64,000 nucleotides of DNA, taken from the NCBI GenBank assembly GCA_032718475.1, contig JAUCBJ010007966.1, positions 1 to 64,000 of the forward strand, read 5' to 3'. Both the position numbers and the translations under genes were made by a program. The DNA comes from Nemertoderma westbladi. Lineage: Eukaryota > Animalia > Xenacoelomorpha. Below are positions 1-27,694 of the stretch, piece after piece. The notes under the pieces are model-generated. The model did not search any database. It was not told the DNA's origin and saw only the letters and a list, made by a program, of their open reading frames with translations. The number at the start of each line of letters is the position of its first letter. Position 1 is the first letter of the stretch.

Positions 1-3000
1 CCCCTAACCTCCCTACTACCTTCCTCTGACTCCAGGGATACCCCTAACCTCTCTACCATTATCTTCCTCTGACTCCAGGGATACCCATAACCTCCCTACC
101 ATTATCTTCCTCCCCTAACCTCCCTACCATTATCTTCCTCTGACTCCAGGGATACCCCTAACCTTCCTACCCATTACCTTCCTCTGACTCCAGGGATACC
201 CCTAACCTCCCTACTACCTTCCTCTGACTCCAGGGATACCCCTAACCTCTCCTACCCATTACCTTCCTCTGACTCCAGGGATACCCCTAACCTCCCTACC
301 ATTACTCTTCCTCTGACTCCAGGGATACCCCTAACCTCTCTACCATTATCTTCCTCTGACTCCAGGGATACCCATAACCTCCCTACCATTACCTTCCTCC
401 CCTAACCTCCCTACCATTATCTTCCTCTGACTCCAGGGATACCCCTAACCTCCCTACTACCTTCCTCTGACTCCAGGGATACCCCTAACCTCTCTACCAT
501 TATCTTCCTCTGACTCCAGGGATACCCCTAACCTCCCTACCATTACCTCTTCCTCCCCTAACCTCCCTACCATTATCTTCCTCTGACTCCAGGGATACCC
601 CTAACCTCCCTACTACCTTCCTCTGACTCCAGGGATACCCCTAACCTCCCTACTACCTTCCTCTGACTCCAGGGATACCCCTAACCTCCCTACTACCTTC
701 CTCTGACTCCAGGGATACCCCTAACCTCCCTACTACCTTCCTCTGACTCCAGGGATACCCCTAACCTCCCTACCTATTACCTTCCTCCCCTAACCTCCCT
801 ACCATTATCTTCCTCTGACTCCAGGGATACCCCTAACCTCCCTACTACCTTCCTCTGACTCCAGGGATACCCCTAACCTCTCTACCATTATCTTCCTCTG
901 ACTCCAGGGATACCCATAACCTCCCTACCATTATCTTCCTCCCCTAACCTCCCTACCATTATCTTCCTCTGACTCCAGGGATACCCCTAACCTTCCTACC
1001 CATTACCTTCCTCTGACTCCAGGGATACCCCTAACCTCCCTACTACCTTCCTCTGACTCCAGGGATACCCCTAACCTCCCTACCCATTATCCTTCCTCCC
1101 CTAACCTCCCTACCAGTTACCTTCCTCCCCTAACCTCCCTACCATTATCTTCCTCTGACTCCAGGGATACCCCTAACCTCCCTACCATTATCTTCCTCTG
1201 ACTCCAGGGATACCCCTAACCTCCCTACTACCTTCCTCTGACTCCAGGGATACCCCTAACCTCTCTACCATTATCTTCCTCTGACTCCAGGGATACCCAT
1301 AACCTCCCTACCATTATCTTCCTCCCCTAACCTCCCTACCATTATCTTCCTCTGACTCCAGGGATACCCCTAACCTTCCTACCCATTACCTTCCTCTGAC
1401 TCCAGGGATACCCCTAACCTCCCTACTACCTTCCTCTGACTCCAGGGATACCCCTAACCTCCCTACCCATTTCCTTCCTCCCCTACCTCCCTACCTTCCT
1501 TCCTCCCCTAACCTCCCTACTACTTCCTCTGACTCCAGGGATACCCCTAACCTCCCTACCATTATCTTCCTCTGACTCCAGGGATACCCCTAACCTCCCT
1601 ACTACCTTCCTCTGACTCCAGGGATACCCCTAACCTCCCTACTACCTTCCTCTGACTCCAGGGATACCCCTAACCTCCCTACTACCTTCCTCTGACTCCA
1701 GGGATACCCCTAACCTCCCTACCTACCTTCCTCTGACTCCAGGGATACCCCTAACCTCCCTACCCATTACCTTCCTCCCCTAACCTCCCTACTACCTTCC
1801 TCTGACTCCAGGGATACCCCTAACCTCCCTACCCATTACCTTCCTCCCCGAACCTCCCTACTACCTTCCTCTGACTCCAGGGATACCCCTAACCTCCCTA
1901 CCCATTACCTTCCTCCCCTAACCTCCCTACTACCTTCCTCTGACTCCAGGGATACCCATAACCTCCCTACCCATTACCTTCCTCTGACTCCATGGATACC
2001 CCTAACCTCCCTACCCATTTCCTTCCTCCCCTAACCTCCCTACCGTTACCTTCCTCCCCTAACCTCCCTACCATTACCTTCCTCTGACTCCAGGGATACC
2101 CCTAACCTCCCTACCCATTACCTTCCTCCCCTAGCCTCCCTACTTACCTTCCTCTGACTCCAGGGATACCCCTAACCTCCCTACCATTACCTTCCTCTGA
2201 CTCCAGGGATACCCCTAACCTCCCTACCCATTTCCTTCCTCCCCTAACCTCCCTACCGTTACCTTCCTCCCCTAACCTCCCTACTACCTTCCTCTGACTC
2301 CAGGGATACCCATAACCTCCCACCATTACCTCCCTCCCCTAACCTCCCTACCATTATCTTCCTCTGACTCCAGGGATACCCCTAACCTCCCTACCATTAT
2401 CTTCCTCTGACTCCAGGGATACCCCTAACCTCCCTACCCATTTCCTTCCTCCCCTAACCTCCCTACCGCTACCTTCCTCCCCTAACCTCCCTACCATTAT
2501 CTTCCTCTGACTCCAGGGATACCCCTAACCTCCCTACCATTGTCTTCCTCTGACTCCAGGGATACCCCTAACCTCCCTACTACCTTCCTCTGACTCCAGG
2601 GATACCCCTAACCTCCCTACTACCTTCCTCTGACTCCAGGGATACCCCTAACCTCCCTACTACCTTCCTCTGACTCCAGGGATACCCCTAACCTCCCTAC
2701 TACCTTCCTCTGACTCCAGGGATACCCCTAACCTCCCTACCCATTACCTTCCTCCCCTAACCTCCCTACCATTATCTTCCTCTGACTCCAGGGATACCCC
2801 TAACCTTCCTACCCATTACCTTCCTCTGACTCCAGGGATACCCCTAACCTCCCTACTACCTTCCTCTGACTCCAGGGATACCCCTAACCTCCCTACCATT
2901 ATCTTCCTCTGATTCCAGGGATACCCATAACCTCCCTACCATTATCTTCCTCTGACTCCAGGGATACCCCTAACCTCCCTACTACCTTCCTCTGACTCCA

Positions 3001-6000
3001 GGGATACCCCTAACCTCCCTACCATTATCTTCCTCTGACTCCAGGGATACCCCTAACCTCCCTACCCATTACCTTCCTCCCCTAACCTCCCTACTACCTT
3101 CCTCTGACTCCAGGGATACCCCTAACCTCCCTACTACCTTCCTCTGACTCCAGGGATACCCCTAACCTCCCTACCATTACCTTCCTCCCCTAACCTCTCT
3201 ACCACTACCTTCCTCTGACTCCAGGGATACCCCTAACCTCCCTACTACCTTCCTCTGACTCCAGGGATACCCCTAACCTCCCTACCATTATCTTCCTCTG
3301 ACTCCAGGGATACCCCTAACCTCCCTACCCATTACCTTCCTCCCCTAACCTCCCTACTACCTTCCTCTGACTCCAGGGATACCCTTTACCTCCCTACCCA
3401 TTACCTTCCTCCCCTAACCTCCCCACCATTACCTTCCTCTGACTCCAGGGATACCCCTAATCTCCCTACCCATTACCTTCCTCCCCTAACCTCCCTACTA
3501 CCTTCCTCTGACTCCAGGGATACCCCTAACCTCCCTACTACCTTCCTCTGACTCCAGGGATACCCCTAACCTCTCTACCCATTACCTTCCTCCCCTAGCC
3601 TCCCTACTACCTTCCTCTGACTCCAGGGATACCCCTAACCTCCCTACTACCTTCCTCTGACTCCAGGGATACCCCTAACCTCTCTACCCATTACCTTCCT
3701 CCCCTAGCCTCCCTACTACCTTCCTCTGACTCCAGGGATACCCCTAACCTCCCTACTACCTTCCTCTGACTCCAGGGATACCCCTAACCTCCCTACCATT
3801 ACCTTCCTCTGACTCCAGGGATACCCCTAACCTCCCTACCCATTACCTTCCTCCCCTAACCTCCCTACTACCTTCCTCTGACTCCAGGGATACCCTTTAC
3901 CTCCCTACCCATTACCTTCCTCCCCTAACCTCCCCACCATTACCTTCCTCTGACTCCAGGGATACCCCTAATCTCCCTACCCATTACCTTCCTCCCCTAA
4001 CCTCCCTACTACCTTCCTCTGACTCCAGGGATACCCCTAACCTCCCTACTACCTTCCTCTGACTCCAGGGATACCCCTAACCTCTCTACCCATTACCTTC
4101 CTCCCCTAGCCTCCCTACTACCTTCCTCTGACTCCAGGGATACCCCTAACCTCCCTACTACCTTCCTCTGACTCCAGGGATACCCCTAACCTCTCTACCC
4201 ATTACCTTCCTCCCCTAGCCTCCCTACTACCTTCCTCTGACTCCAGGGATACCCCTAACCTCCCTACTACCTTCCTCTGACTCCAGGGATACCCCTAACC
4301 TCTCTACCCATTACCTTCCTCCCCTAGCCTCCCTACTACCTTTCTCTGACTCCAGGGATACCCCTAACCTCCCTACTACCTTCCTCTGACTCCAGGGATA
4401 CCCCTAACCTCCCTACCCATTTCCTTCCTCCCCTAACCTCCCTACCGTTACCTTCCTCCCCTAACCTCCCTACCATTATCTTCCTCTGACTCCAGGGATA
4501 CCCCTAACCTCCCTACCATTGTCTTCCTCTGACTCCAGGGATACCCCTAACCTCCCTACTACCTTCCTCTGACTCCAGGGATACCCCTAACCTCCCTACT
4601 ACCTTCCTCTGACTCCAGGGATACCCCTAACCTCCCTACTACCTTCCTCTGACTCCAGGGATACCCCTAACCTCCCTACTACCTTCCTCTGACTCCAGGG
4701 ATACCCCTAACCTCCCTACCCATTACCTTCCTCCCCTAACCTCCCTACCATTATCTTCCTCTGACTCCAGGGATACCCCTAACCTTCCTACCCATTACCT
4801 TCCTCTGACTCCAGGGATACCCCTAACCTCCCTACTACCTTCCTCTGACTCCAGGGATACCCCTAACCTCCCTACCATTATCTTCCTCTGATTCCAGGGA
4901 TACCCATAACCTCCCTACCATTATCTTCCTCTGACTCCAGGGATACCCCTAACCTCCCTACTACCTTCCTCTGACTCCAGGGATACCCCTAACCTCCCTA
5001 CCATTATCTTCCTCTGACTCCAGGGATACCCCTAACCTCCCTACCCATTACCTTCCTCCCATAACCTCCCTACTACCTTCCTCTGACTCCAGGGATACCC
5101 CTAACCTCCCTACTACCTTCCTCTGACTCCAGGGATACCCCTAACCTCCCTACCATTACCTTCCTCCCCTAACCTCTCTACCACTACCTTCCTCTGACTC
5201 CAGGGATACCCCTAACCTCCCTACTACCTTCCTCTGACTCCAGGGATACCCCTAACCTCCCTACCATTATCTTCCTCTGACTCCAGGGATACCCCTAACC
5301 TCCCTACCCATTACCTTCCTCCCCTAACCTCCCTACTACCTTCCTCTGACTCCAGGGATACCCTTTACCTCCCTACCCATTACCTTCCTCCCCTAACCTC
5401 CCCACCATTACCTTCCTCTGACTCCAGGGATACCCCTAATCTCCCTACCCATTACCTTCCTCCCCTAACCTCCCTACTACCTTCCTCTGACTCCAGGGAT
5501 ACCCCTAACCTCCCTACTACCTTCCTCTGACTCCAGGGATACCCCTAACCTCTCTACCCATTACCTTCCTCCCCTAGCCTCCCTACTACCTTCCTCTGAC
5601 TCCAGGGATACCCCTAACCTCCCTACTACCTTCCTCTGACTCCAGGGATACCCCTAACCTCTCTACCCATTACCTTCCTCCCCTAGCCTCCCTACTACCT
5701 TCCTCTGACTCCAGGGATACCCCTAACCTCCCTACTACCTTCCTCTGACTCCAGGGATACCCCTAACCTCCCTACCATTACCTTCCTCTGACTCCAGGGA
5801 TACCCCTAACCTCCCTACCATTACCTTCCTCTGACTCCAGGGATACCCCTAACCTCTCTACCAATTACCTTCCCCCCTAACCTCCCTACTACCTTCCTCT
5901 GACTCCAGGGATACCCCTAACCTCTCTACCATTACCTTCCTCTGACTCCAGGGATACCCCTAACCTCTCTACCCATTACCTTCCCCCCCTAACCTCCCTA

Positions 6001-9000
6001 CTACCCTTTAAGGTTCCACCTTGGTGTAGTGGTTGCATTGAATTCACATCTCCTGTAGGTCGTGGGTTCAATCCTCACATGGGCCAGGGCAGTTTTAATT
6101 TCGGCACGAATGCTTTAAAGGGACCAGCCAGGGCGCATCTCTGCCTTGCATCCTTAAGTGGTAGCTAAATGAGTACTGGAGTTTCCTCTGGGGAGTAAAG
6201 TTCTAGGGGGACCGCACTGGAAATAAGTCGTCAGACTTTGTGCGTAATCCCTGGCCTAGCGGCCGAAGAAAATTTACTTTACTTTTACTTTTTACCTTCC
6301 TCTGACTCCAGGGATACCCCTAACCTCTCTACCATTACCTTCCTCTGACTCCAGGGATACCCCTAACCTCTCTACCCATTACCTTCCCCCCCTAACCTCC
6401 CTACTACCTTCCTCTGACTCCAGGGATACCCATAACCTCCCTACTACCTTCCTCTGACTCCAGGGATACCCCTAACCTTCCTACCCATTACCTTCCTCCC
6501 CTAACCTCCCTACCCATTTCCCTCCTCCCCTAACCTCCCTACCGTTACCTTCCTCCCCTAACCTCCCTACCATTATCTTCCTCTGACTCCAGGGATACCC
6601 CTAACCTCCCTACTACCTTCCTCTGACTCCAGGGATACCCTTTACCTCCCTACCCATTACCTTCCTCCCCTAACCTCCCCACCATTACCTTCCTCTGACT
6701 CCAGGGATACCCCTAACCTCCCTACCCATTACCTTCCTCCCCTAACCTCCCTACTACCTTCCTCTGACTCCAGGGATACCCCTAACCTCCCTACTACCTT
6801 CCTCTGACTCCAGGGATACCCCTAACCTCTCTACCCATTACCTTCCTCCCCTAGCCTCCCTACTACCTTCCTCTGACTCCAGGGATACCCCTAACCTCCC
6901 TACTACCTTCCTCTGACTCCAGGGATACCCCTAACCTCTCTACCCATTACCTTACTCCCCTAGCCTCCCTACTACCTTCCTCTGACTCCAGGGATACCCC
7001 TAACCTCCCTACTACCTTCCTCTGACTCCAGGGATACCCCTAACCTCCTACCCATTACCTTCCTCCCCTAGCCTCCCTACTACCTTCCTCTGACTCCAGG
7101 GATACCCCTAACCTCCCTACTACCTTCCTCTGACTCCAGGGATACCCCTAACCTCCCTACCCATTTCCTTCCTCCCCTAACCTCCCTACCGTTACCTTCC
7201 TCCCCTAACCTCCCTACCATTATCTTCCTCTGACTCCAGGGATACCCCTAACCTCCCTACCATTATCTTCCTCTGACTCCAGGGATACCCCTAACCTCCC
7301 TACTACCTTCCTCTGACTCCAGGGATACCCCTAACCTCCCTACTACCTTCCTCTGACTCCAGGGATACCCCTAACCTCCCTACTACCTTCCTCTGACTCC
7401 AGGGATACCCCTAACCTCCCTACTACCTTCCTCTGACTCCAGGGATACCCCTAACCTCCCTACTACCTTCCTCTGACTCCAGGGATACCCCTAACCTCCC
7501 TACCATTATCTTCCTCTGACTCCAGGGATACCCCTAACCTCCCTACCCATTACCTTCCTCCCCTAACCTCCCTACTACCTTCCTCTGACTCCAGGGATAC
7601 CCTTAACCTCCCTACCCATTACCTTCCTCCCCTAACCTCCCCACCATTACCTTCCTCTGACTCCAGGGATACCCCTAATCTCCCTACCCATTACCTTCCT
7701 CCCCTAACCTCCCTACTACCTTCCTCTGACTCCAGGGATACCCCTAACCTCCCTACTACCTTCCTCTGACTCCAGGGATACCCCTAACCTCTCTACCCAT
7801 TACCTTCCTCCCCTAGCCTCCCTACTACCTTCCTCTGACTCCAGGGATACCCCTAACCTCCCTACTACCTTCCTCTGACTCCAGGGATACCCCTAACCTC
7901 TCTACCCATTACCTTCCTCCCCTAGCCTCCCTACTACCTTCCTCTGACTCCAGGGATACCCCTAACCTCCCTACTACCTTCCTCTGACTCCAGGGATACC
8001 CCTAACCTCTCTACCCATTACCTTCCTCCCCTAACCTCCCTACTACCTTCCTCTGACTCCAGGGATACCCCTAACCTCCCTACTACCTTCCTCTGACTCC
8101 AGGGATACCCCTAACCTCCCTACCCATTTCCTTCCTCCCCTAACCTCCCTACCGTTACCTTCCTCCCCTAACCTCCCTACCATTATCTTCCTCTGACTCC
8201 AGGGATACCCCTAACCTCCCTACCATTACCTTCCTCTGACTCCAGGGATACCCCTAACCTCCCTACTACCTTCCTCTGACTCCAGGGATACCCCTAACCT
8301 CCCTACTACCTTCCTCTGACTCCAGGGATACCCCTAACCTCCCTACTACCTTCCTCTGACTCCAGGGATACCCCTAACCTCCCTACTACCTTCCTCTGAC
8401 TCCAGGGATACCCCTAACCTCCCTACTACCTTCCTCTGACTCCAGGGATACCCCTAACCTCCCTACCATTACCTTCCTCTGACTCCAGGGATACCCCTAA
8501 CCTCTCTACCATTATCTTCCTCTGACTCCAGGGATACCCATAACCTCCCTACCATTACCTTCCTCCCCTAACCTCCCTACCATTATCTTCCTCTGACTCC
8601 AGGGATACCCCTAACCTCTCTACCATTACCTTCCTCTGACTCCAGGGATACCCCTAACCTCCTACTACTTCCTCTGACTCCAGGGATACCCTAACCTCCC
8701 TACCATTATCTTCCTCCCCTAACCTCCCTACCATTATCTTCCTCTGACTCCAGGGATACCCCTAACCTCTCCTACCATTATCTTCCTCTGACTCCAGGGA
8801 TACCCATAACCTCCCTACCATTATCTTCCTCTGACTCCAGGGATACCCCTAACCTCCCTACTACCTTCCTCTGACTCCAGGGATACCCCTAACCTCCCTA
8901 CCATTATCTTCCTCTGACTCCAGGGATACCCCTAACCTCCCTACTACCTTCCTCTGACTCCAGGGATACCCCTAACCTCCCTACCATTATCTTCCTCTGA

Positions 9001-12000
9001 CTCCAGGGATACCCCTAACCTCTCCTACCCATTACCTTCCTCTGACTCCAGGGATACCCCTAACCTCCCTACTACCTTCCTCTGACTCCAGGGATACCCC
9101 TAACCTCCCTACCATTATCTTCCTCTGACTCCAGGGATACCCCTAACCTCTCCTACCATTACCTTCCTCTGACTCCAGGGATACCCCTAACCTCCCTACT
9201 ACCTTCCTCTGACTCCAGGGATACCCCTAACCTCCCTACTACCTTCCTCTGACTCCAGGGATACCCCTAACCTCCCTACTACCTTCCTCTGACTCCAGGG
9301 ATACCCCTAACCTCCCTACCATTATCTTCCTCTGACTCCAGGGATACCCCTAACCTCCCTACCATTATCTTCCTCTGACTCCAGGGATACCCATAACCTC
9401 CCTACCATTATCTTCCTCCCCTAACCTCCCTACCATTATCTTCCTCTGACTCCAGGGATACCCCTAACCTCTCTACCATTATCTTCCTCTGACTCCAGGG
9501 ATACCCCTAACCTCCCTACCATTATCTTCCTCTGACTCCAGGGATACCCATAACCTCCCTACCATTATCTTCCTCCCCTAACCTCCCTACCATTATCTTC
9601 CTCTGACTCCAGGGATACCCCTAACCTCCCTACCATTATCTTCCTCTGACTCCAGGGATACCCATAACCTCCCTACCATTATCTTCCTCTGACTCCAGGG
9701 ATACCCCTAACCTCCCTACTACCTTCCTCTGACTCCAGGGATACCCATAACCTCCCTACCATTATCTTCCTCTGACTCCAGGGATACCCCTAACCTCCCT
9801 ACTACCTTCCTCTGACTCCAGGGATACCCCTAACCTCCCTACCATTATCTTCCTCTGACTCCAGGGATACCCCTAACCTCCCTACCATTACCTTCCTCTG
9901 ACTCCAGGGATACCCCTAACCTCCCTACTACCTTCCTCTGACTCCAGGGATACCCCTAACCTCCCTACCATTATCTTCCTCTGACTCCAGGGATACCCCT
10001 AACCTCCCTACCATTACCTTCCTCTGACTCCAGGGATACCCCTAACCTCCCTACTACCTTCCTCTGACTCCAGGGATACCCCTAACCTCCCTACTACCTT
10101 CCTCTGACTCCAGGGATACCCCTAACCTCCCTACTACCTTCCTCTGACTCCAGGGATACCCCTAACCTCTCTACCATTATCTTCCTCTGACTCCAGGGAT
10201 ACCCATAACCTCCCTACCATTATCTTCCTCCCCTAACCTCCCTACCATTATCTTCCTCTGACTCCAGGGATACCCCTAACCTCTCCTACCATTATCTTCC
10301 TCTGACTCCAGGGATACCCCTAACCTCTCTACCATTATCTTCCTCTGACTCCAGGGATACCCATAACCTCCCTACCATTATCTTCCTCCCCTAACCTCCC
10401 TACCATTATCTTCCTCTGACTCCAGGGATACCCCTAACCTCCTACCATTATCTTCCTCTGACTCCAGGGATACCCATAACCTCCCTACCATTATCTTCCT
10501 CTGACTCCAGGGATACCCCTAACCTCCCTACTACCTTCCTCTGACTCCAGGATACCCCTAACCTCCCTACCATTATCTTCCTCTGACTCCAGGGATACCC
10601 CTAACCTCCCTACTACCTTCCTCTGACTCCAGGGATACCCCTAACCTCCCTACCATTATCTTCCTCTGACTCCAGGGATACCCCTAACCTCCCTACCCAT
10701 TACCTTCCTCTGACTCCAGGGATACCCCTAACCTCCCTACTACCTTCCTCTGACTCCAGGGATACCCCTAACCTCCCTACCATTATCTTCCTCTGACTCC
10801 AGGGATACCCCTAACCTCCCTATCCATTACCTTCCTCTGACTCCAGGGATACCCCTAACCTCCCTACTACCTTCCTCTGACTCCAGGGATACCCCTAACC
10901 TCCCTACTACCTTCCTCTGACTCCAGGGATACCCCTAACCTCCCTACTACCTTCCTCTGACTCCAGGGATACCCCTAACCTCCCTACCATTATCTTCCTC
11001 TGACTCCAGGGATACCCCTAACCTCCCTACTACCTTCCTCTGACTCCAGGGATACCCCTAACCTCCCTACCATTACCTTCCTCCCCTAACCTCCCTACCT
11101 TATCTTCCTCTGACTCCAGGGATACCCCTAACCTCTCCTACCATTACCTTCCTCTGACTCCAGGGATACCCCTAACCTCCCTACCCATTACCTCTCTCCT
11201 CCCCTAACCTCCCTACTACCTTCCTCTGACTCCAGGGATACCCCTAACCTCCCTACCTTACCTTCCTCTGACTCCAGGGATACCCCTAACCTCCCTACCA
11301 TTACCTTCCTCCCCTAACCTCCCTACCTATCTTCCTCTGACTCCAGGGATACCCCTAACCTCCCTACCATTACCTTCCTCTGACTCCAGGGATACCCCTA
11401 ACCTCTCTACCATTATCTTCCTCTGACTCCAGGGATACCCATAACCTCCCTACCATTATCTTCCTCCCCTAACCTCCCTACCATTATCTTCCTCTGACTC
11501 CAGGGATACCCCTAACCTCCCTACCATTATCTTCCTCTGACTCCAGGGATACCCCTAACCTCCCTACCATTATCTTCCTCTGACTCCAGGGATACCCCTA
11601 ACCTCCCTACTACCTTCCTCTGACTCCAGGGATACCCCTAACCTCCCTACCATTATCTTCCTCTGACTCCAGGGATACCCATAACCTCCCTACTACCTTC
11701 CTCTGACTCCAGGGATACCCCTAACCTCCCTACCCATTTCCTTCCTCCCCTAACCTCCCTACCGTTACCTTCCTCCCCTAACCTCCCTACCATTATCTTC
11801 CTCTGACTCCAGGGATACCCATAACCTCCCTACCATTACCTTCCTCTGACTCCAGGGATACCCCTAACCTCCCTACCATTATCTTCCTCTGACTCCAGGG
11901 ATACCCCTAACCTCCCTACTACCTTCCTCTGACTCCAGGGATACCCCTAACCTCCCTACTACCTTCCTCTGACTCCAGGGATACCCCTAACCTCTCTACC

Positions 12001-15000
12001 CATTACCTTCCTCCCCTAACCTCCCTACTACCTTCCTCTGACTCCAGGGATACCCCTAACCTCCCTACTACCTTCCTCTGACTCCAGGGATACCCCTAAC
12101 CTCCCTACTACCTTCCTCTGACTCCAGGGATACCCATAACCTCCCACCATTACCTTCCTCCCCTAACCTCCCTACCATTACCTTCCTCTGACTCCAGGGA
12201 TACCCCTAACCTCCCTACTACCTTCCTCTGACTCCAGGGATACCCCTAACCTCTCTACCATTATCTTCCTCTGACTCCAGGGAACCCCTAACCTCCCTAC
12301 CATTTCCTTCCTCCCCTAACCTCCCTACCATTACCTTCCTCCCCTAACCTCCCTACCATTATCTTCCTCTGACTCCAGGGATACCCCTAACCTCCTACCA
12401 TTACCTTCCTCTGACTCCAGGGATACCCCTAACCTCCCTACTACCTTCCTCTGACTCCAGGGATACCCCTAACCTCCCTACTACCTTCCTCTGACTCCAG
12501 GGATACCCCTAACCTCCCTACTACCTTCCTCTGACTCCAGGGATACCCCTAACCTCCCTACCATTACCTTCCTCTGACTCCAGGGATACCCCTAACCTCT
12601 CTACCATTATCTTCCTCTGACTCCAGGGATACCCCTAACCTCCCTACCATTACCTTCCTCCCCTAACCTCCCTACCATTATCTTCCTCTGACTCCAGGGA
12701 TACCCATAACCTCCCTACTACCTTCCTCTGACTCCAGGGATACCCCTAACCTCCCTACCATTATCTTCCTCTGACTCCAGGGATACCCCTAACCTCTCTA
12801 CCATTATCTTCCTCTGACTCCAGGGATACCCATAACCTCTCTACCATTATCTTCCTCTGACTCCAGGGATACCCCTAACCTCCCTACCATTACCTTCCTC
12901 CCCTAACCTCCCTACCATTATCTTCCTCTGACTCCAGGGATACCCATAACCTCTCTACCATTATCTTCCTCTGACTCCAGGGATACCCCTAACCTCCCTA
13001 CCATTACCTTCCTCCCCTAACCTCCCTACCATTATCTTCCTCTGACTCCAGGGATACCCCTAACCTCCCTACCATTATCTTCCTCCCCTAACCTCCCTAC
13101 CATTATCTTCCTCTGACTCCAGGGATACCCCTAACCTCTCTACCATTATCTTCCTCTGACTCCAGGGATACCCCTAACCTCCCTACCATTACCTTCCTCC
13201 CCTAACCTCCCTACCATTATCTTCCTCTGACTCCAGGGATACCCATAACCTCCCTACTACCTTCCTCTGACTCCAGGGATACCCATAACATCCCTACCAT
13301 TATCTTCCTCCCCTAACCTCCCTACCATTATCTTCCTCTGACTCCAGGGATACCTCTAACCTCCCTACCCATTACCTTCCTCCCCTAACCTCCCTACCAT
13401 TATCTTCCTCTGACTCCAGGGATACCCATAACCTCCCTACTACCTTCCTCTGACTCCAGGGATACCCATAACATCCCTACCATTATCTTCCTCCCCTAAC
13501 CTCCCTACCATTATCTTCCTCTGACTCCAGGGATACCCATAACCTCCCTACCATTATCTTCCTCCCCTAACCTCCCTACCATTATCTTCCTCTGACTCCA
13601 GGGATGCCCCTAACCTCTCTACCATTATCTTCCTCTGACTCCAGGGATACCCCTAACCTCCCTACCCATTACCTTCCTCCCCTAACCTCCCTACTACCTT
13701 CCTCTGACTCCAGGGATACCCCTAACCTCCCTACTACCTTCCTCTGACTCCAGGGATACCCCTAACCTCTCTACCATTATCTTCCTCTGACTCCAGGGAT
13801 ACCCATAACCTCCCTACCATTACCATTATCTTCCTCCCCTAACCTCCCTACCATTATCTTCCTCTGACTCCAGGGATACCCCTAACCTCTCTTCTACCTT
13901 CCTCTGACTCCAGGGATACCCCTAACCTCTCTACCATTATCTTCCTCTGACTCCAGGGATACCCATAACCTCCCTACCATTATCTTCCTCCCCTAACCTC
14001 CCTACCATTATCTTCCTCTGACTCCAGGGATACCCCTAACCTCCCTACTACCTTCCTCTGACTCCAGGGATACCCCTAACCTCCCTACTACCTTCCTCTG
14101 ACTCCAGGGATACCCCTAACCTCCCTACTACCTTCCTCTGACTCCAGGGATACCCCTAACCTCCCTACTACCTTCCTCTGACTCCAGGGATACCCCTAAC
14201 CTCCCTACCCATTACCTTCCTCCCCTAACCTCCCCACCATTACCTTCCTCTGACTCCTGGGATACCCCTAACCTCCCTACCTATTACCTTCCTCCCCTAA
14301 CCTCCCTACCATTATCTTCCTCTGACTCCAGGGATACCCCTAACCTTCCTACCCATTACCTTCCTCTGACTCCAGGGATACCCCTAACCTCCCTACTACC
14401 TTCCTCTGACTCCAGGGATACCCTTAACCTCTCTACCATTATCTTCCTCTGACTCCAGGGATACCCATAACCTCCCTACCATTATCTTCCTCCCCTAACC
14501 TCCCTACCATTATCTTCCTCTTACTCCAGGGATACCCCTAACCTTCCTACCCATTACCTTCCTCTGACTCCAGGGATACCCCTAACCTCCCTACCATTGT
14601 CTTCCTCTGACTCCAGGGATACCCCTAACCTCCCTACTACCTTCCTCTGACTCCAGGGATACCCCTAACCTCCCTACTACCTTCCGCTGACTCCAGGGAT
14701 ACCCCTAACCACCCTACTACCTTCCTCTGACTCCAGCGATACCCCTAACCTCCCTACTACCTTCCTCTGACTCCAGGGATACCCCTAACCTCCCTACCCA
14801 TTACCTTCCTCCCCTAACCTCCCTACCATTATCTTCCTCTGACTCCAGGGATACCCCTAACCTTCCTACCCATTACCTTCCTCTGAGTCCAGGGATACCC
14901 CTAACCTCCCTACTACCTTCCTCTGACTCCAGGGATACCCCTAACCTCCCTACCATTATCTTCCTCTGATTCCAGGGATACCCATAACCTCCCTACCATT

Positions 15001-18000
15001 ATCTTCCTCTGACTCCAGGGATACCCCTAACCTCCCTACTACCTTCCTCTGACTCCAGGGATACCCCTAACCTCCCTACCATTATCTTCCTCTGACTCCA
15101 GGGATACACCTAACCTCCCTACCCATTACCTTCCTCCCCTAACCTCCCTACTACCTTCCTCTGACTCCAGGGATACCCTTTACCTCCCTACTACCTTCCT
15201 CTGACTCCAGGGATACCCCTAACCTCCCTACCCATTACCTTCCTCCCCTAACCTCCCCACCATTATCTTCCTCTGACTCCAGGGATACCCCTAACCTTCC
15301 TACCCATTACCTTCCTCTGACTCCAGGGATACCCCTAACCTCCCTACTACCTTCCTCTGACTCCAGGGATACCCCTAACCTCCCTACCATTATCTTCCTC
15401 TGATTCCAGGGATACCCATAACCTCCCTACCATTATCTTCCTCTGACTCCAGGGATACCCCTAACCTCCCTACTACCTTCGTCTGACTCCAGGGATACCC
15501 CTAACCTCCCTACCATTATCTTCCTCTGACTCCAGGGATTCCCCTAACCTCTCTACCCATTACCTTCCTCCCCTAACCTCCCTACTACCTTCCTCTGACT
15601 CCAGGGATACCCTTTACCTCCCTACCCATTACCTTCCTCCCCTAACCTCCCCACCATTACCTTCCTCTGACTCCAGGGATACCCCTAATCTCCCTACCCA
15701 TTACCTTCCTCCCCTAACCTCCCTACTACCTTCCTCTGACTCCAGGGATACCCCTAACCTCCCTACTACCTTCCTCTGACTCCAGGGATACCCCTAACCT
15801 CTCTACCCATTACCTTCCTCCCCTAGCCTCCCTACTACCTTCCTCTGACTCCAGGGATACCCCTAACCTCCCTACTACCTTCCTCTGACTCCAGGGATAC
15901 CCCTAACCTCTCTACACATTACCTTCCTCCCCTAGCCTCCCTACTACCTTCCTCTGACTTCAGGGATACCCCTAACCTCCCTACTACCTTCCTCTGACTC
16001 CAGGGATACCCCTAACCTCCCTACCATTACCTTCCTCTGACTCCAGGGATACCCCTAACCTCTCTACCATTACCTTCCTCTGACTCCAGGGATACCCCTA
16101 ACCTCTCTACCCATTACCTTCCCCCCCTAACCTCCCTACTACCTTCCTCTGACTCCAGGGATACCCCTAACCTCTCTACCATTACCTTCCTCTGACTCCA
16201 GGGATACCCCTAACCTCTCTACCCATTACCTTCCCCCCCTAACCTCCCTACTACCTTCCTCTGACTCCAGGGATACCCCTAACCTCTCTACCATTACCTT
16301 CCTCTGACTCCATGGATACCCCTAACCTCTCTACCCATTACCTTCCCCCCCTAACCTCCCTACTACCTTCCTCTGACTCCAGGGATACCCATAACCTCCC
16401 TACTACCTTCCTCTGACTCCAGGGATACCCCTAACCTTCCTACCCATTACCTTCCTCCCCTAACCTCCCTACCCATTTCCCTCCTCCCCTAACCTCCCTA
16501 CCGTTACCTTCCTCCCCTAACCTCCCTACCATTATCTTCCTCTGACTCCAGGGATACCCCTAACCTCCCTACTACCTTCCTCTGACTCCAGGGATACCCA
16601 TAACCTCCCTACCCATTACCTTCCTCCCCTAACCTCCCTACCCATTTCCCTCCTCCCCTAACCTCCCTACCGTTACCTTCCTCCCCTAACCTCCCTACCA
16701 TTATCTTCCTCTGACTCCAGGGATACCCCTAACCTTCCTACCATTATCTTCCTCTGACTCCAGGGATACCCCTAACCTCCCTACCGTTACCTTCCTCCCC
16801 TAACCTCCCTACCATTATCTTCCTCTGACTCCAGGGATACCCCTAACCTCTCTACCATTACCTTCCTCTGACTCCAGGGATACCCCTAACCTCTCTACCC
16901 ATTACCTTCCCCCCCTAACCTCCCTACTACCTTCCTCTGACTCCAGGGATACCCATAACCTCCCTACTACCTTCCTCTGACTCCAGGGATACCCCTAACC
17001 TCCCCCCATTACCTTCCTCCCCTAACCTCCCTACCATTACCTTCCTCTGACTCCAGGGATACCCATAACCTCCCTACCATTATCTTCCTCTGACTCCAGG
17101 GATACCCCTAACCTCCCTACCATTATCTTCCTCTGACTCCAGGGATACCCCTAACCTCCCTACTACCTTCCTCTGACTCCAGGGATACCCATAACCTCCC
17201 TACCATTATCTTCCTCTGACTCCAGGGATACCCCTAACCTCCCTACCATTATCTTCCTCTGACTCCAGGGATACCCATAACCTCCCTACCATTATCTTCC
17301 TCTGACTCCAGGGATACCCCTAACCTCCCTACTACCTTCCTCTGACTCCAGGGATACCCCTAACCTCCCTACCATTATCTTCCTCTGACTCCAGGGATAC
17401 CCCTAACCTCCCTACTACCTTCCTCTGACTCCAGGGATACCCCTAACCTCCCTACTACCTTCCTCTGACTCCAGGGATACCCATAACCTCCCTACCATTA
17501 TCTTCCTCTGACTCCAGGGATACCCCTAACCTCCCTACTACCTTCCTCTGACTCCAGGGATACCACTAACCTCCCTACCCATTACCTTCCTCCCCTAACC
17601 TCCCTACTACCTTCCTCTGACTCCAGGGATACCCATAACCTCCCTACCCATTACCTTCCTCCCCTAACCTCCCTACTACCTTCCTCTGACTCCAGGGATA
17701 CCCCTAACCTCCCTACCATTATCTTCCTCTGACTCCAGGGATACCCCTAACCTCCCTACTACCTTCCTCTGACTCCAGGGATACCCCTAACCTCCCTACC
17801 CATTACCTTCCTCCCCTAACCTCCCTACTACCTTCCTCTGACTCCAGGGATACCCATAACCTCCCTACCATTACCTTCCCCCCCTAACCTCCCTACTACC
17901 TTCCTCTGACTCCAGGGATACCCCTAACCTCTCTACCATTACCTTCCTCTGACTCCAGGGATACCCCTAACCTCCCTACTACCTTCCTCTGACTCCAGGG

Positions 18001-21000
18001 ATACCCCTAACCTCTCTACCCATTACCTTCCTCCCCTAACCTCCCTACTACCTTCCTCTGACTCCAGGGATACCCTTTACCTCCCTACCCATTACCTTCC
18101 TCCCCTAACCTCCCCACCATTACCTTCCTCTGACTCCAGGGATACCCCTAATCTCCCTACCCATTACCTTCCTCCCCTAACCTCCCTACTACCTTCCTCT
18201 GACTCCAGGGATACCCCTAACCTCCCTACTACCTTCCTCTGACTCCAGGGATACCCCTAACCTCTCTACCCATTACCTTCCTCTGACTCCAGGGATACCC
18301 CTAACCTCCCTACCATTGTCTTCCTCTGACTCCAGGGATACCCCTAACCTCCCTACTACCTTCCTCTGACTCCAGGGATACCCCTAACCTCCCTACTACC
18401 TTCCGCTGACTCCAGGGATACCCCTAACCACCCTACTACCTTCCTCTGACTCCAGCGATACCCCTAACCTCCCTACTACCTTCCTCTGACTCCAGGGATA
18501 CCCCTAACCTCCCTACCCATTACCTTCCTCCCCTAACCTCCCTACCATTATCTTCCTCTGACTCCAGGGATACCCCTAACCTTCCTACCCATTACCTTCC
18601 TCTGAGTCCAGGGATACCCCTAACCTCCCTACTACCTTCCTCTGACTCCAGGGATACCCCTAACCTCCCTACCATTATCTTCCTCTGATTCCAGGGATAC
18701 CCATAACCTCCCTACCATTATCTTCCTCTGACTCCAGGGATACCCCTAACCTCCCTACTACCTTCCTCTGACTCCAGGGATACCCCTAACCTCCCTACCA
18801 TTATCTTCCTCTGACTCCAGGGATACACCTAACCTCCCTACCCATTACCTTCCTCCCCTAACCTCCCTACTACCTTCCTCTGACTCCAGGGATACCCTTT
18901 ACCTCCCTACTACCTTCCTCTGACTCCAGGGATACCCCTAACCTCCCTACCCATTACCTTCCTCCCCTAACCTCCCCACCATTATCTTCCTCTGACTCCA
19001 GGGATACCCCTAACCTTCCTACCCATTACCTTCCTCTGACTCCAGGGATACCCCTAACCTCCCTACTACCTTCCTCTGACTCCAGGGATACCCCTAACCT
19101 CCCTACCATTATCTTCCTCTGATTCCAGGGATACCCATAACCTCCCTACCATTATCTTCCTCTGACTCCAGGGATACCCCTAACCTCCCTACTACCTTCG
19201 TCTGACTCCAGGGATACCCCTAACCTCCCTACCATTATCTTCCTCTGACTCCAGGGATTCCCCTAACCTCTCTACCCATTACCTTCCTCCCCTAACCTCC
19301 CTACTACCTTCCTCTGACTCCAGGGATACCCTTTACCTCCCTACCCATTACCTTCCTCCCCTAACCTCCCCACCATTACCTTCCTCTGACTCCAGGGATA
19401 CCCCTAATCTCCCTACCCATTACCTTCCTCCCCTAACCTCCCTACTACCTTCCTCTGACTCCAGGGATACCCCTAACCTCCCTACTACCTTCCTCTGACT
19501 CCAGGGATACCCCTAACCTCTCTACCCATTACCTTCCTCCCCTAGCCTCCCTACTACCTTCCTCTGACTCCAGGGATACCCCTAACCTCCCTACTACCTT
19601 CCTCTGACTCCAGGGATACCCCTAACCTCTCTACACATTACCTTCCTCCCCTAGCCTCCCTACTACCTTCCTCTGACTCCAGGGATACCCCTAACCTCCC
19701 TACTACCTTCCTCTGACTCCAGGGATACCCCTAACCTCCCTACCATTACCTTCCTCTGACTCCAGGGATACCCCTAACCTCTCTACCATTACCTTCCTCT
19801 GACTCCAGGGATACCCCTAACCTCTCTACCCATTACCTTCCCCCCCTAACCTCCCTACTACCTTCCTCTGACTCCAGGGATACCCCTAACCTCTCTACCA
19901 TTACCTTCCTCTGACTCCAGGGATACCCCTAACCTCTCTACCCATTACCTTCCCCCCCTAACCTCCCTACTACCTTCCTCTGACTCCAGGGATACCCCTA
20001 ACCTCTCTACCATTACCTTCCTCTGACTCCATGGATACCCCTAACCTCTCTACCCATTACCTTCCCCCCTAACCTCCCTACTACCTTCCTCTGACTCCAG
20101 GGATACCCATAACCTCCCTACTACCTTCCTCTGACTCCAGGGATACCCCTAACCTTCCTACCCATTACCTTCCTCCCCTAACCTCCCTACCCATTTCCCT
20201 CCTCCCCTAACCTCCCTACCGTTACCTTCCTCCCCTAACCTCCCTACCATTATCTTCCTCTGACTCCAGGGATACCCCTAACCTCCCTACTACCTTCCTC
20301 TGACTCCAGGGATACCCATAACCTCCCTACCCATTACCTTCCTCCCCTAACCTCCCTACCCATTTCCCTCCTCCCCTAACCTCCCTACCGTTACCTTCCT
20401 CCCCTAACCTCCCTACCATTATCTTCCTCTGACTCCAGGGATACCCCTAACCTTCCTACCATTATCTTCCTCTGACTCCAGGGATACCCCTAACCTCCCT
20501 ACCGTTACCTTCCTCCCCTAACCTCCCTACCATTATCTTCCTCTGACTCCAGGGATACCCCTAACCTCTCTACCATTACCTTCCTCTGACTCCAGGGATA
20601 CCCCTAACCTCTCTACCCATTACCTTCCCCCCCTAACCTCCCTACTACCTTCCTCTGACTCCAGGGATACCCATAACCTCCCTACTACCTTCCTCTGACT
20701 CCAGGGATACCCCTAACCTCCCCCCATTACCTTCCTCCCCTAACCTCCCTACCATTACCTTCCTCTGACTCCAGGGATACCCATAACCTCCCTACCATTA
20801 TCTTCCTCTGACTCCAGGGATACCCCTAACCTCCCTACCATTATCTTCCTCTGACTCCAGGGATACCCCTAACCTCCCTACTACCTTCCTCTGACTCCAG
20901 GGATACCCATAACCTCCCTACCATTATCTTCCTCTGACTCCAGGGATACCCCTAACCTCCCTACCATTATCTTCCTCTGACTCCAGGGATACCCATAACC

Positions 21001-23671
21001 TCCCTACCATTATCTTCCTCTGACTCCAGGGATACCCCTAACCTCCCTACTACCTTCCTCTGACTCCAGGGATACCCCTAACCTCCCTACCATTATCTTC
21101 CTCTGACTCCAGGGATACCCCTAACCTCCCTACTACCTTCCTCTGACTCCAGGGATACCCCTAACCTCCCTACTACCTTCCTCTGACTCCAGGGATACCC
21201 ATAACCTCCCTACCATTATCTTCCTCTGACTCCAGGGATACCCCTAACCTCCCTACTACCTTCCTCTGACTCCAGGGATACCACTAACCTCCCTACCCAT
21301 TACCTTCCTCCCCTAACCTCCCTACTACCTTCCTCTGACTCCAGGGATACCCATAACCTCCCTACCCATTACCTTCCTCCCCTAACCTCCCTACTACCTT
21401 CCTCTGACTCCAGGGATACCCCTAACCTCCCTACCATTATCTTCCTCTGACTCCAGGGATACCCCTAACCTCCCTACTACCTTCCTCTGACTCCAGGGAT
21501 ACCCCTAACCTCCCTACCCATTACCTTCCTCCCCTAACCTCCCTACTACCTTCCTCTGACTCCAGGGATACCCATAACCTCCCTACCATTACCTTCCCCC
21601 CCTAACCTCCCTACTACCTTCCTCTGACTCCAGGGATACCCCTAACCTCTCTACCATTACCTTCCTCTGACTCCAGGGATACCCCTAACCTCCCTACTAC
21701 CTTCCTCTGACTCCAGGGATACCCCTAACCTCTCTACCCATTACCTTCCCCCCCTAACCTCCCTACTACCTTCCTCTGACTCCAGGGATACCCTTTACCT
21801 CCCTACCCATTACCTTCCTCCCCTAACCTCCCTACCTTACCTTCCTCTGCCTCCAGGGATACCCCTAATCTCCCTACCCATTACCTCCCTCCTCCCCTAA
21901 CCTCCCTTACTACCTTCCTCTGACTCCAGGGATACCCCTAACCTCCCTACTACCTTCCTCTGACTCCAGGGATACCCCTAACCTCCCTACCCATTACCTT
22001 CCCCCCCTAACCTTCCTACTACCTTCCTCTGACTCCAGGGATACCCCTAACCTCCCTACTACCTTCCTCTGACTCCAGGGATACCCCTAAGCTCCCTACT
22101 ACCTTCCTCTGACTCCAGGGATACCCCTAACCTCCCTACCCATTATCTTCCTCCCCTAACCTCCCTACTACCTTCCTCTGACTCCAAGGATACCCATAAC
22201 CTCCCTACTACCTTCCTCTGCCTCCAGGGATACCCATAACCTCCCTACCCATTACCTTCCCCCCCTAACCTCCCTACTACCTTCCTCTGACTCCAGGGAT
22301 ACCCCTAACCTCTCTACCATTACCTTCCTCTGACTCCAGGGATACCCATAACCTCCCCACCCATTACCTTCCCCCCTAACCTCCCTACTACCTTCCTCTG
22401 ACTCCAGGGATACCCCTAACCTCTCTACCATTACCTTCCTCTGACTCCAGGGATACCCCTAACCTCCCTACTACCTTCCTCTGACTCCAGGGATACCCCT
22501 AACCTCTCTACCCATTACCTTCCCCCCCTAACCTCCCTACTACCTTCCTCTGACTCCAGGGATACCCCTAACCTCTCTACCATTATCTTCCTCTGACTCC
22601 AGGGATACCCCTAACCTCCCTACTACCTTCCTCTGCCTCCAGGGATACCCATAACCTCCCTACCCATTACCTTCCCCCCCTAACCTCCCTACTACCTTCC
22701 TCTGACTCCAGGGATACCCCTAACCTCCCTACTACCTTCCTCTGACTCCAGGGATACCCCTAACCTCCCTACTACCTTCCTCTGACTCCAGGGATACCCC
22801 TAACCTCCCTACCCATTACCTTCCCCCCCTAACCTCCCTACTACCTTCCTCTGACTCCAGGGATACCCCTAACCTCCCTACTACCTTCCTCTGACTCCAG
22901 GGATACCCCTAACCTCCCTACTACCTTCCTCTGACTCCAGGGATACCCATAACCTCCCTACCCATTACCTTCCCCCCTAACCTCCCTACTACCTTCCTCT
23001 GACTCCAGGGATACCCCTAACCTCCCTACTACCTTCCTCTGCCTCCAGGGATACCCATAACCTCCCTACCCATTACCTTCCCCCCCTAACCTCCCTACTA
23101 CCTTCCTCTGACTCCAGGGATACCCCTAACCTCCCTACTACCTTCCTCTGACTCCAGGGATACCCCTAACCTCCCTACTACCTTCCTCTGACTCCAGGGA
23201 TACCCATAACCTCCCTACCCATTACCTTCCCCCCCTAACCTCCCTACTACCTTCCTCTGACTCCAGGGATACCCCTAACCTCCCTACTACCTTCCTCTGA
23301 CTCCAGGGATACCCCTAACCTCCCTACTACCTTCCTCTGACTCCAGGGATACCCCTAACCTCCCTACCCATTACCTTCCCCCCTAACCTCCCTACTACCT
23401 TCCTCTGACTCCAAGGATACCCCTAACCTCTCTACCATTACCTTCCTCTGACTCCAGGGATACCCCTAACCTCCCTACTACCTTCCTCTGACTCCAGGGA
23501 TACCCCTAACCTCTCTACCATTATCTTCCTCTGACTCCATGGATACCCCTAACCTCCCTACTACCTTCCTATGACACCAGGGATCCCCCTCCCTATCATT
23601 ACCTTCCTCTGACTCCAGGGATACCCCTAACCTCCCTATCATTATTACCTTCCTCTGACTCCAGGGATACC
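1..23671. repeat. Composite satellite of 40, 43/44 and ~28-29 bp monomers (core CCCCTAACCTCCCTACTACCTTCCTCTGACTCCAGGGATA), intronic to the MATCAP-like gene and open at the left edge
   Basis: Monomers are directly visible throughout. The array ends at ...CCAGGGATACC (23671), where unique coding sequence begins. About 600 units, estimated from length divided by unit size. Confidence 0.98.
6006..6292 (+). mobile_element. tRNA-derived SINE inserted in the satellite
   Basis: A-box TGGTGTAGTGG (6022-6032), B-box GGTTCAATCC (6065-6074), (TTTAC)n-like tail at 6273-6292 and a short TACC duplication on the flanks. The central CTCTGCCTTGCATCCTT...TAAATGAGTAC resembles, from memory, the conserved Nin/Deu-type SINE core. 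Confidence 0.85.
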
Positions 23672-23866
23672 AAGCTTCCAGGTTTCCTTATCCCAAACTT
23701 CCCTCGATCAGCGAACCACGCCTGGTGTCCGTCGTTGATGAACCTCATAAAATGTGTCCCGATTTCGTGATCGGCTAAGCAGATTATTCCATGTTCCCTT
23801 AGGTAGGGGTTGCTGTTGGAATCTTTGATAAAGAAAGTAAACTTTCTTGTCTCTGGCCGATTTTGT
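23649..23866 (-). CDS. MATCAP: MATCAP/KIAA0895-like (DUF1704) metallocarboxypeptidase, catalytic exon
   Basis: Acceptor TATTGCAG|A and donor GAAG|GTAATA. Encodes QNRPETRKFTFF...CLADHEIGTHFMRFINDGHQAWFADRGKFGIRKPGSLVSLESEEG, matching the family pattern HEIGTH..R..N...Q.W......G......EEG. Confidence 0.88.
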
Positions 23867-24309: not shown

Positions 24310-24491
24310 CTGCAATGAGGTCCGTTAGCCACCATTTTAGCAGCAGCGGATAAATGATGAGCCCAAACAATCTTTAATTTACCACCTAGACCGTGATTGT
24401 CAATGTATTTGCTAAGTTTGTCGGTGGCTTCCTCTTTAGAGATACGTTTTCCCCACGAACAGGCTAGGTATGTTTCTCCACAACCAAAATC
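24310..24491 (-). CDS. MATCAP: MATCAP-like exon with GC donor
   Basis: Acceptor GGCAG|GAT. Open frame DFGCGETYLACSWGKRISKEEATDKLSKYIDNHGLGGKLKIVWAHHLSAAAKMVANGPHC. Donor AG|GCAAGT is phase 2 and matches the next exon. Confidence 0.82.
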
Positions 24492-25434: not shown

Positions 25435-25571
25435 CTCAACAACTTTATCTAGAATCTGTTTGGCTTCTGTGATAAGTTCGTAGGAAACGGTACTCTTTTC
25501 TTTATGAGTGGTTGAATCGCCCCGTATAGAATCATCAACTACTTTTGGTAGTAATATCGTTGGTATGTAAC
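25435..25571 (-). CDS. MATCAP: MATCAP-like exon
   Basis: TTTTAG|GT...GAG|GTGATC. Encodes (G)YIPTILLP...VSYELITEAKQILDKVVE. Phases 1 and 0 match both neighbours, and it resembles the family helix upstream of the catalytic core. Confidence 0.78.
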
Positions 25572-25819: not shown

Positions 25820-25827
25820 CTGCAATT

Positions 25828-26000: not shown

Positions 26001-26013
26001 TTCGACCTTAGAC

Positions 26014-27619: not shown

Positions 27620-27694
27620 CGGCAACTTGTTTGTTTCTGATGAAAATTGGCATAGATTTCAAAACTGACATAATTATATTACAATCGCAACTCA
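27620..27694 (-). CDS. Candidate 5' coding exon of the MATCAP-like gene (ATG at 27671)
   Basis: TTTCAG acceptor and strong donor CCG|GTAAGT in phase 1. Encodes MSVLKSMPIFIRNKQVA. Confidence 0.5.

What the first reader, a model, noticed from the sequence alone, without database searches (positions are those of the whole stretch)
1..23690. A >=23.6-kb satellite built from the exon/5'-splice-site junction of a tubulin carboxypeptidase gene
Seen: on the minus strand the MATCAP exon ends ...AGC TTG GTA TCC CTG GAG TCA GAG GAA G|GTAATA. The satellite monomer is GGTATCCCTGGAGTCAGAGGAAG followed by GTAAT/GTAGT...AGGGAGGTTAGG, so the terminal monomer is itself the coding exon end. Known: MATCAP/KIAA0895 proteins use HExxxH plus a downstream EEG glutamate for zinc, so these codons should be essential and older than the array. 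Inference: the junction was amplified about 600-fold into a giant intron of exon-end plus donor copies. Using the second donor (~23602) would add 46 nt and shift the frame, so the cell must pick the first of hundreds of look-alike sites. This could give decoy splicing, stepwise splicing or NMD-linked regulation.
Basis: partly seen in the sequence, partly recalled or inferred. Interest (0 to 1): 0.88.

Follow-up and report, generated by a model that had tools for sequence, protein, structure and literature searches.

The report
Giant splice-donor minisatellite in MATCAP gene
An invertebrate gene for a tubulin-trimming enzyme (MATCAP family) is followed, right at the end of the exon that codes for its predicted metal-binding glutamate, by at least 23.6 kb of tandem repeats that copy this exon end and its splice signal hundreds of times; the cell likely still cuts at the first signal, as a few human genes with much smaller repeats of this kind do, but no RNA was available to show it.

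Summary
An array of 25-46-nt units fills 1-23671. Its first unit is the last 23 nt of a minus-strand exon plus the GT donor at 23648. Downstream lie 415 exact copies of that 23-mer and 427 GGAAG|GT pseudo-donors; 156 further units read AT instead. The exon belongs to an invertebrate MATCAP/KIAA0895-like gene: a five-exon model is open for 281 codons, and its His-to-Glu spacing (39) equals that of 36 of 49 homologues with the motif, so the codons predate the array. Every later donor gives a frameshift or an immediate stop. The architecture is a known kind: junction-spanning minisatellites in human F7, CBS, 6-16, LMNB2 and PDGF, where the first donor wins. This one is about twenty times larger than the largest listed there. 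Ratchet-type recursive splicing is unlikely, because the sense strand has no polypyrimidine tract. Not shown: splicing, expression, the downstream exons, or the far end of the array (no genome held, no RNA run listed). One twist: no homologue showed an intron at this position, so intron and array may share a recent origin. Verdict: new, very large member of a known kind.

The parts
1..23671 (-). G-rich minisatellite, units 24-46 nt (commonest 40, 43, 44, 25, 28 nt): about 17-23 nt of intron start plus a copy of the last 23 nt (long units) or 5-7 nt (short units) of the exon; open at the left edge of the window
   Evidence: TRF; unit split and counts; 0.4% mean divergence of the 23-mer copies, and internal duplications at offsets of about 3.7 kb and 2 kb
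23649..23671 (-). Coding exon end that is also the first repeat copy; codons for V-S-L-E-S-E-E and the first base of G, including the predicted third metal ligand
   Evidence: Sequence; alignment to homologues, EE invariant in 9 of 9 rows; 39-residue spacing
23641..23648 (-). Predicted authentic 5' splice site AAG|GTAATAAT, phase 1 inside the Gly codon of EEG
   Evidence: Only donor that keeps the frame free of stops; read-through matches 0 of 49 homologues at each of the 7 positions after G; not shown by RNA
23595..23602 (-). Second donor AAG|GTAATGAT (+46 nt, frameshift); in-frame TAA at 23601-23599 makes every later donor a premature-stop product
23649..23866 (-). MATCAP-like exon (218 nt) with HEIGTH and EE(G)
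   Evidence: phmmer: 102 proteins at E<=0.001, best 61% identity, E 1.2e-20; 8 of 8 top hits scanned carry Pfam MATCAP PF08014; PDB 7z5g KIAA0895-like E 0.0007-0.0013
24310..24491 (-). Upstream MATCAP exon; ends at a GC donor (CAG|GCAAGT), predicted GC-AG intron of 443 nt
   Evidence: tblastn of homologues E 1e-9 to 2e-11; the GT 4 nt further on breaks the frame
25435..25571 (-). Upstream MATCAP exon (model)
   Evidence: In-frame in the model; covered by the BLASTP alignment to P0122
25679..25933 (-). Upstream MATCAP exon (model; 5' boundary uncertain)
   Evidence: In-frame; BLASTP alignment starts at model residue 62, within this exon
27620..27671 (-). Possible first coding exon (my guess from an ATG and a GTAAGT donor; no homology support)
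   Evidence: Sequence only
6010..6294 (+). Single SINE-like insertion inside the array (tRNA-like head by eye, TTTAC-type tail); not copied elsewhere in the window
   Evidence: ARAGORN found no tRNA gene; Rfam only chance hits

Best explanation
This is a minisatellite that likely began as a 46-nt tandem duplication across the exon/5'-splice-site junction of a MATCAP-family gene and expanded to at least 23.6 kb; the gene is likely still spliced at the first donor (23648) and joined to exons beyond the array, with the copies staying mostly silent. Shown: the array, its identity with the exon end, the open five-exon frame, and that all later donors are unproductive. Inferred: expansion by slippage and unequal exchange, helped by a G-rich, strand-asymmetric unit; choice of the first donor by the upstream-first or exon-definition rule demonstrated for human F7; loss of any leak to the second donor by nonsense-mediated decay. 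The array is then tolerated cargo in a repeat-rich genome, not a device.
For: Unit = intron start + exon end, first unit is the exon itself. 415 of 450 downstream 23-mers are exact, and kilobase blocks are duplicated: 21749-18265 recurs about 3.7 kb further on, 5819-4448 recurs 1979 nt on, so the expansion is young or homogenised. Gene looks intact up to the array: 281 codons, no stop; 34 of 38 columns conserved in at least 85% of 19 homologues are matched; BLASTP 40% over 220 residues to oyster KIAA0895-like P0122, E 2.5e-52. All 49 of 102 hits that reach EEG continue G-[LFI]-A, and the array does not, so the protein must leave the DNA frame exactly where a GT donor sits. The real donor pairs with a recalled U1 consensus at 8 of 11 positions, equal to the second donor and above nearly all other copies. 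Precedent: F7 uses only the first of 5-9 identical donors, even against stronger downstream sites (PMC1557585). Tandem arrays are common here: five other arrays lie in the remaining 40 kb, and arrays cover 48% of the window. Mean G4Hunter score 0.92 against 0.01 for the rest of the window.
Against: No RNA evidence and no downstream exon: 42 conserved columns after EE are absent from the window. The F7 rule was shown in mammalian cells with at most 9 copies; 6-16 and CBS do leak to the next one or two pseudo-sites. The intron before this exon has a predicted GC donor, and the second donor would give a still ordinary 264-nt exon, so leak is plausible. Among homologous fragments, 37 break off after HExxxH-F/Y and 8 after N-D/E-G, but none of 49 at EEG, so the intron may be lineage-specific, which leaves room for other origins. 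Bilaterians have two TMCP homologues (PMC10499314), so this copy could be dispensable.
Confidence: 0.65

Rival explanations
1. Broken gene: the 3' half is lost or displaced and the array marks the break (for example a healed chromosome end or rearrangement); the 5' half has not yet decayed.
For: No 3' exons in the window. The array runs off the window with its G-rich strand pointing outward and holds 514 TTAGGG hexamers. A second TMCP paralogue may exist.
Against: No stop or frameshift in 281 codons and 34 of 38 conserved columns kept. The break falls exactly on an AAG|GTAAT donor. No two TTAGGG are in tandem. Rare variants do not clearly rise toward base 1, so nothing shows that the contig ends there.
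Confidence: 0.15
2. Regulated decoy use: a share of transcripts splices at 23602 or later and is destroyed by NMD, so array length or composition tunes enzyme level.
For: The second donor matches the first in U1 pairing (8 of 11), and all alternatives are frameshifted or carry TAA at 23601-23599. Leak to proximal pseudo-sites is reported for CBS and 6-16.
Against: No data on usage. 156 of 583 units have lost the GT and the commonest head is the weaker GTAGTA, which looks like drift, not upkeep. The second donor is predicted less accessible than the first (0.56 against 0.84 unpaired; weak evidence).
Confidence: 0.1
3. Self-similar new intron: the intron was born as a 46-nt GT...AG piece ending in a 23-nt copy of the exon end (staggered-break repair type), then expanded unit by unit. 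The array would be the whole intron, end flush on the next exon, and any donor-to-unit-end splice would rebuild the same junction.
For: Every unit begins GT (or its AT variant) and ends AG. No homologue shows an intron here, and this gene lacks the positions seen in relatives (after HEIGTHF, before S-A-R-M). Gained introns flanked by direct repeats are described (PMC3443670).
Against: The unit-end AAG is the fourth AG after a 5-nt pyrimidine run. There are mostly 2-5 pyrimidines in the 14 nt before AG|GT sites, against 7-10 at the gene's own modelled acceptors. The shortest other modelled intron is 107 nt. The intron half of the unit does not code for G-L-A, which rules out the purely exonic tandem-duplication route. 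The homologue test for intron position is weak: short exon fragments may escape the search.
Confidence: 0.07

Closest known systems
Human F7 intron 7 37-bp VNTR (Borensztajn et al. 2006, PMC1557585; read: abstract, passages of Introduction and Results, whole Discussion)
   Same: First monomer spans the exon-intron boundary, so the donor is reiterated downstream; only the most upstream site is used.
   Different: 5-9 copies with 4 exon bases per unit, against about 585 units with up to 23 exon bases here; here the copied bases code for a predicted metal ligand; usage here is untested.
Human CBS intron 13 (15-20 repeats), 6-16 intron 2 (25 pseudo-sites), LMNB2 (10-15 x 100 bp), PDGF intron 4 (16-18 x 81 bp), as summarised in the Introduction of PMC1557585 (primary papers not seen)
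   Same: Junction-spanning minisatellites; at most the one or two nearest pseudo-sites are used.
   Different: At least twenty-fold fewer copies; mammalian.
Satellite-filled giant introns of Drosophila kl-3 and kl-5 (Fingerhut et al. 2019, PMC6508621; abstract only)
   Same: An intron made almost wholly of transcribed tandem repeats.
   Different: Megabases of simple satellite; the abstract does not describe the units as copies of the splice junction.
Intron gain by tandem genomic duplication or double-strand-break repair (review PMC3443670; passages)
   Same: AG|GT at the junction and a direct repeat of the exon end inside the intron.
   Different: The unit's intron half is not exon-derived, and no acceptor-like sequence is seen in the array.
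MATCAP/TMCP/KIAA0895 tubulin carboxypeptidases (PMC10499314; passages and one methods section)
   Same: HExxxH plus downstream EEG; host gene 40% identical to an oyster KIAA0895-like protein.
   Different: Invertebrate subfamily with His-to-Glu spacing 39, against 36 in human TMCP1 (from E281 and E316 in the paper); C-terminal half not in the window.

Membership tests
Junction-spanning (splice-donor) minisatellites, F7/CBS type | Tandem array whose first monomer includes the exon end and the 5' splice site | tested here: met
Junction-spanning (splice-donor) minisatellites, F7/CBS type | Donor sequence reiterated in the following intron | tested here: met
   427 of 583 unit boundaries read GGAAG|GT; 283 follow an exact 23-mer
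Junction-spanning (splice-donor) minisatellites, F7/CBS type | Most upstream donor used in mRNA | not testable with these tools
   No RNA run listed; only frame logic
Junction-spanning (splice-donor) minisatellites, F7/CBS type | Array lies in a real intron (downstream exon exists); length varies between alleles | not testable with these tools
   No genome held; 3' exons not in the window
MATCAP/TMCP (Pfam PF08014) | HExxxH motif | tested here: met
   HEIGTH; H, E, T, H invariant in alignment A1
MATCAP/TMCP (Pfam PF08014) | Downstream EEG with the third metal ligand at conserved spacing | tested here: met
   Spacing 39, as in 36 of 49 homologues with the motif; G completed by read-through or by splicing
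MATCAP/TMCP (Pfam PF08014) | Match to the Pfam model | tested here: inconclusive
   Single exons did not hit PF08014; 8 of 8 best homologues scanned did
MATCAP/TMCP (Pfam PF08014) | Complete catalytic domain and tubulin carboxypeptidase activity | not testable with these tools
   42 conserved columns lie beyond the exon end
Recursive-splicing (ratchet-point) introns | Polypyrimidine tract plus YAG abutting a GT donor (definition recalled) | tested here: not met
   Sense strand 72% purine; longest pyrimidine run in units 5 nt; unit-end AG is AAG after three nearer AGs
Introns gained by tandem duplication of an exonic AGGT segment | Duplicated unit is wholly exonic, including the codons after the site | tested here: not met
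   Unit reads G-N-N-D-R-E-V-R; 0 of 49 homologues share any of the 7 residues after G

The most novel reading that the evidence does not exclude
The array is a chain of several hundred whole mini-introns: a newly gained 46-nt GT...AG intron, born with a copy of the exon end, expanded until it is the entire intron and ends flush on the next exon. Splicing from any donor to any unit end would then remove whole units and rebuild the same junction, giving a self-similar intron that can be removed in steps right at an enzyme's metal-ligand codon.
Probability: 0.07. Interest if true: 0.8.

Novelty: new member of a known kind. Interest (0 to 1): 0.36.

Why it matters
If the gene is spliced normally, it is a natural stress test of the 'first donor wins' rule at about twenty times the copy number of the largest human case listed in PMC1557585, in a distant animal lineage and at a codon where any error should destroy the enzyme. 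It shows how far a junction repeat can grow without breaking a gene, and it is a trap for assembly and annotation. It does not show a new mechanism. AI notes from this scan list similar arrays in other animals (unchecked), so the recurring class may be more interesting than this one locus.

Tried and rejected
No whole genome is held, so the monomer could not be searched genome-wide and the next exon could not be sought. Sequencing-run search for 23640-27800: no RNA holder listed; this is no evidence on expression, and no reads were laid. Word-index protein searches with the exon found nothing; the HMMER scan later found 102 relatives. Pfam and NCBIfam on single exons: no relevant family. The ESM Atlas was not available for this sequence. 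Metagenome scan gave one locus, L001, a bacterial-looking contig with a chance peptide match; discarded. Plasmid tblastn: no match. The 285-bp insert is not a MATCAP exon (best tblastn E 0.31, 1 of 8 queries). No long ORF in the array (at most 110 codons). A test for rising error toward a contig end was inconclusive. Donor-dead units are not concentrated next to the real donor (3 of 52 in the first 2 kb), so there is no sign of selection to disable near copies. Folding shows no general masking of pseudo-donors (0.38-0.94 unpaired). Paper searches with no hit; PMC10078293 and PMC10565955 (passages) added nothing. I make no claim that such large arrays are absent from print beyond these searches.
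Full report
What is there. The first 23.7 kb of the window is one tandem array (TRF period 40, about 609 copies, 112-23671, with rows back to base 1) with a strong strand bias (GC skew about -0.7). Read on the minus strand, it starts inside an exon...GGA AGC TTG GTA TCC CTG GAG TCA GAG GAA G|GTAATAAT, last exon base 23649. Splitting at GGAAG|GTA or GGAAG|ATA gives 583 downstream unit boundaries. Long units (40-46 nt) are 17-23 nt of intron start plus the last 23 nt of the exon; short units (24-28 nt) keep only the last 5-7 exon bases. The 23-mer has 450 matches at up to 2 mismatches in the window and none in 100 shuffles; no exact copy lies elsewhere on the minus strand. Of 450 downstream copies within 3 mismatches, 415 are exact (0.4% mean divergence), and kilobase blocks recur at offsets of about 3.7 kb and 2 kb. 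One 285-bp SINE-like element sits at 6010-6294 and is not copied elsewhere in the window. The array is therefore young or well homogenised, and built by repeated duplication.

How many look-alike donors. 237 units begin GTAG, 190 GTAA and 156 AT, which cannot be a donor. 283 boundaries are an exact 23-mer followed by GT. The real donor's 9-mer recurs only at 14287 and 780. Counting pairs to a recalled U1 consensus, the first and second donors both make 8 of 11; one site deep in the array (2147) makes 9, and the bulk make 5-7. The second donor (23602) adds 46 nt and shifts the frame. An in-frame TAA at 23601-23599 spoils every later donor. So only the first donor can give a working protein.

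The gene. The exon matches human KIAA0895-like structures weakly (7z5g, E 0.0007-0.0013). In the HMMER scan of 1.84 billion representatives it matches 102 proteins at E up to 0.001, best 61% identity, E 1.2e-20. All 8 top hits I scanned carry Pfam MATCAP. Of 10 looked up, 9 carry a source organism (molluscs, echinoderms, a brachiopod, a flatworm) and several are named KIAA0895-like or MATCAP in their clusters. A five-exon model (27671-27620, 25933-25679, 25571-25435, 24491-24310, 23866-23649) is open for 281 codons and needs one GC donor; its first exon is a guess. It aligns with P0122 at 40% over 220 residues, E 2.5e-52, and keeps 34 of 38 columns conserved in at least 85% of 19 homologues. 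The distance from the first His to the second Glu of EEG is 39, as in 36 of the 49 hits that reach the motif. In human TMCP1 this Glu (E316) is the putative third metal ligand, and its mutation strongly reduces activity (PMC10499314, passages). The copied codons are thus ancestral, and the array came from the exon, not the reverse. All 49 hits continue G-[LFI]-A; the array does not match them at any of the next 7 positions. 42 conserved columns lie beyond the exon end and are not in the window.

What could not be tested. No genome is held and no RNA run was listed. Expression, junction use, the far end of the array, the next exon and locus specificity are all open.

How it most likely works. 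A 46-nt duplication across the junction seeded a G-rich unit (72% purine, mean G4Hunter 0.92 against 0.01 elsewhere) that expanded by slippage and unequal exchange (inferred). Arrays are common in this genome: five others lie in the remaining 40 kb, and arrays cover 48% of the window. For splice choice there is direct precedent. In human F7 the first unit of a 37-bp VNTR spans the exon 7 boundary; only the most upstream of 5-9 identical donors is used, and downstream sites strengthened to a consensus value of 91 still do not compete (PMC1557585; abstract, passages, whole Discussion). The same paper lists CBS, 6-16, LMNB2 and PDGF, with 10-25 copies and leak to at most two near sites. I put 0.65 on the same behaviour here, with any leak removed by NMD (inferred).

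Rivals. A broken gene (0.15) fits the missing 3' half and the outward-pointing G strand with 514 scattered TTAGGG, but not the clean reading frame or the break falling on a donor. Regulated decoy use (0.10) is possible but has no support beyond the strength of the second donor. Ratchet-type recursive splicing fails its defining test: the longest pyrimidine run in the units is 5 nt, and AG|GT sites have mostly 2-5 pyrimidines in the 14 nt upstream, against 7-10 at the gene's modelled acceptors. One observation keeps a bolder reading alive. Among homologous fragments, 37 of 102 break off into V-S-like sequence right after HExxxH-F/Y and 8 after N-D/E-G, which I read as run-through into introns (inferred from protein only). 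Several also begin just before S-A-R-M, and none of 49 breaks at EEG. This gene has none of those introns, and has introns at H-C-R|Q and EE|G instead. The array-bearing intron may thus be lineage-specific. Each unit begins GT and ends AG, so the unit could be the whole original intron, born with an exon-copy tail (a route reviewed in PMC3443670, passages). The poor acceptor context makes this unlikely (0.07), and the test is weak because short exon fragments may escape the search.

Organism. The neighbouring LOXHD1-like protein is at most 53% identical to sampled animals over its length and groups beside echinoderms and hemichordates with support 0.37, in a tree of 31 of the 120 hits listed. 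This says only that it is an animal with no close relative among those sampled.

Earlier notes of this scan describe arrays of the same build in a sea urchin (two genes), an octopus-like animal and a shark, with 90-377 copies. They are unchecked AI notes and I did not test them; they suggest the class recurs.

Verdict. Observation confirmed, with the count of true look-alike donors lowered to about 280-430. Interpretation partly supported. New, very large member of a known kind; interest 0.36. No supplementary files were consulted; none bears on the main claims as far as I can tell.

Noticed in passing
window 40818-48380 (-): A LOXHD1-like gene (17 PLAT stretches, about 2,510 aa) encoded in a single uninterrupted frame; this gene has many exons in other animals (recalled). 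It points to wholesale intron loss in this lineage or a retrocopy.
   Followed up: partly
window 23649-27671 (-): The MATCAP-like gene lacks the intron positions suggested by homologous fragments (after HEIGTHF, before S-A-R-M) and has different ones, including a predicted GC-AG intron at 24309-23867.
   Followed up: partly
window 6010-6294 (+): Single SINE-like insertion in the array, tRNA-like head by eye and TTTAC-type tail; no second copy in the window.
   Followed up: partly
window 27868-29529, 30669-31789, 32596-33209, 34729-37310, 38668-40012: Five unrelated tandem arrays (units 11, 16, 36, 46, 33 nt; four of them 94-99% matched); with the main array they cover 48% of the window. The 33-nt array abuts a decayed LINE-like fragment.
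   Followed up: no
window 24720-25058: AT-rich degenerate repeat, apparently with inverted symmetry, inside a MATCAP intron.
   Followed up: no
window 25703-25725: A 17-of-23 match to the repeat's exon 23-mer in an upstream exon, same frame (S-L-x-x-E-E); probably chance.
   Followed up: partly
window 54736-58451 (-), 49231-50301 (-), 37931-38620 (-): LINE-type retroelement remains: one with long ORF1-like, endonuclease-like and RT frames, and two decayed copies of another family.
   Followed up: no
window 52227-53802 (-): Two-exon-looking gene for a low-complexity protein with no Pfam family above cut-off.
   Followed up: no
window 34010-34120 (-): Stretch flanked by a good acceptor and a GTAAGT donor; possible non-coding first exon of the MATCAP-like gene.
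   Followed up: no
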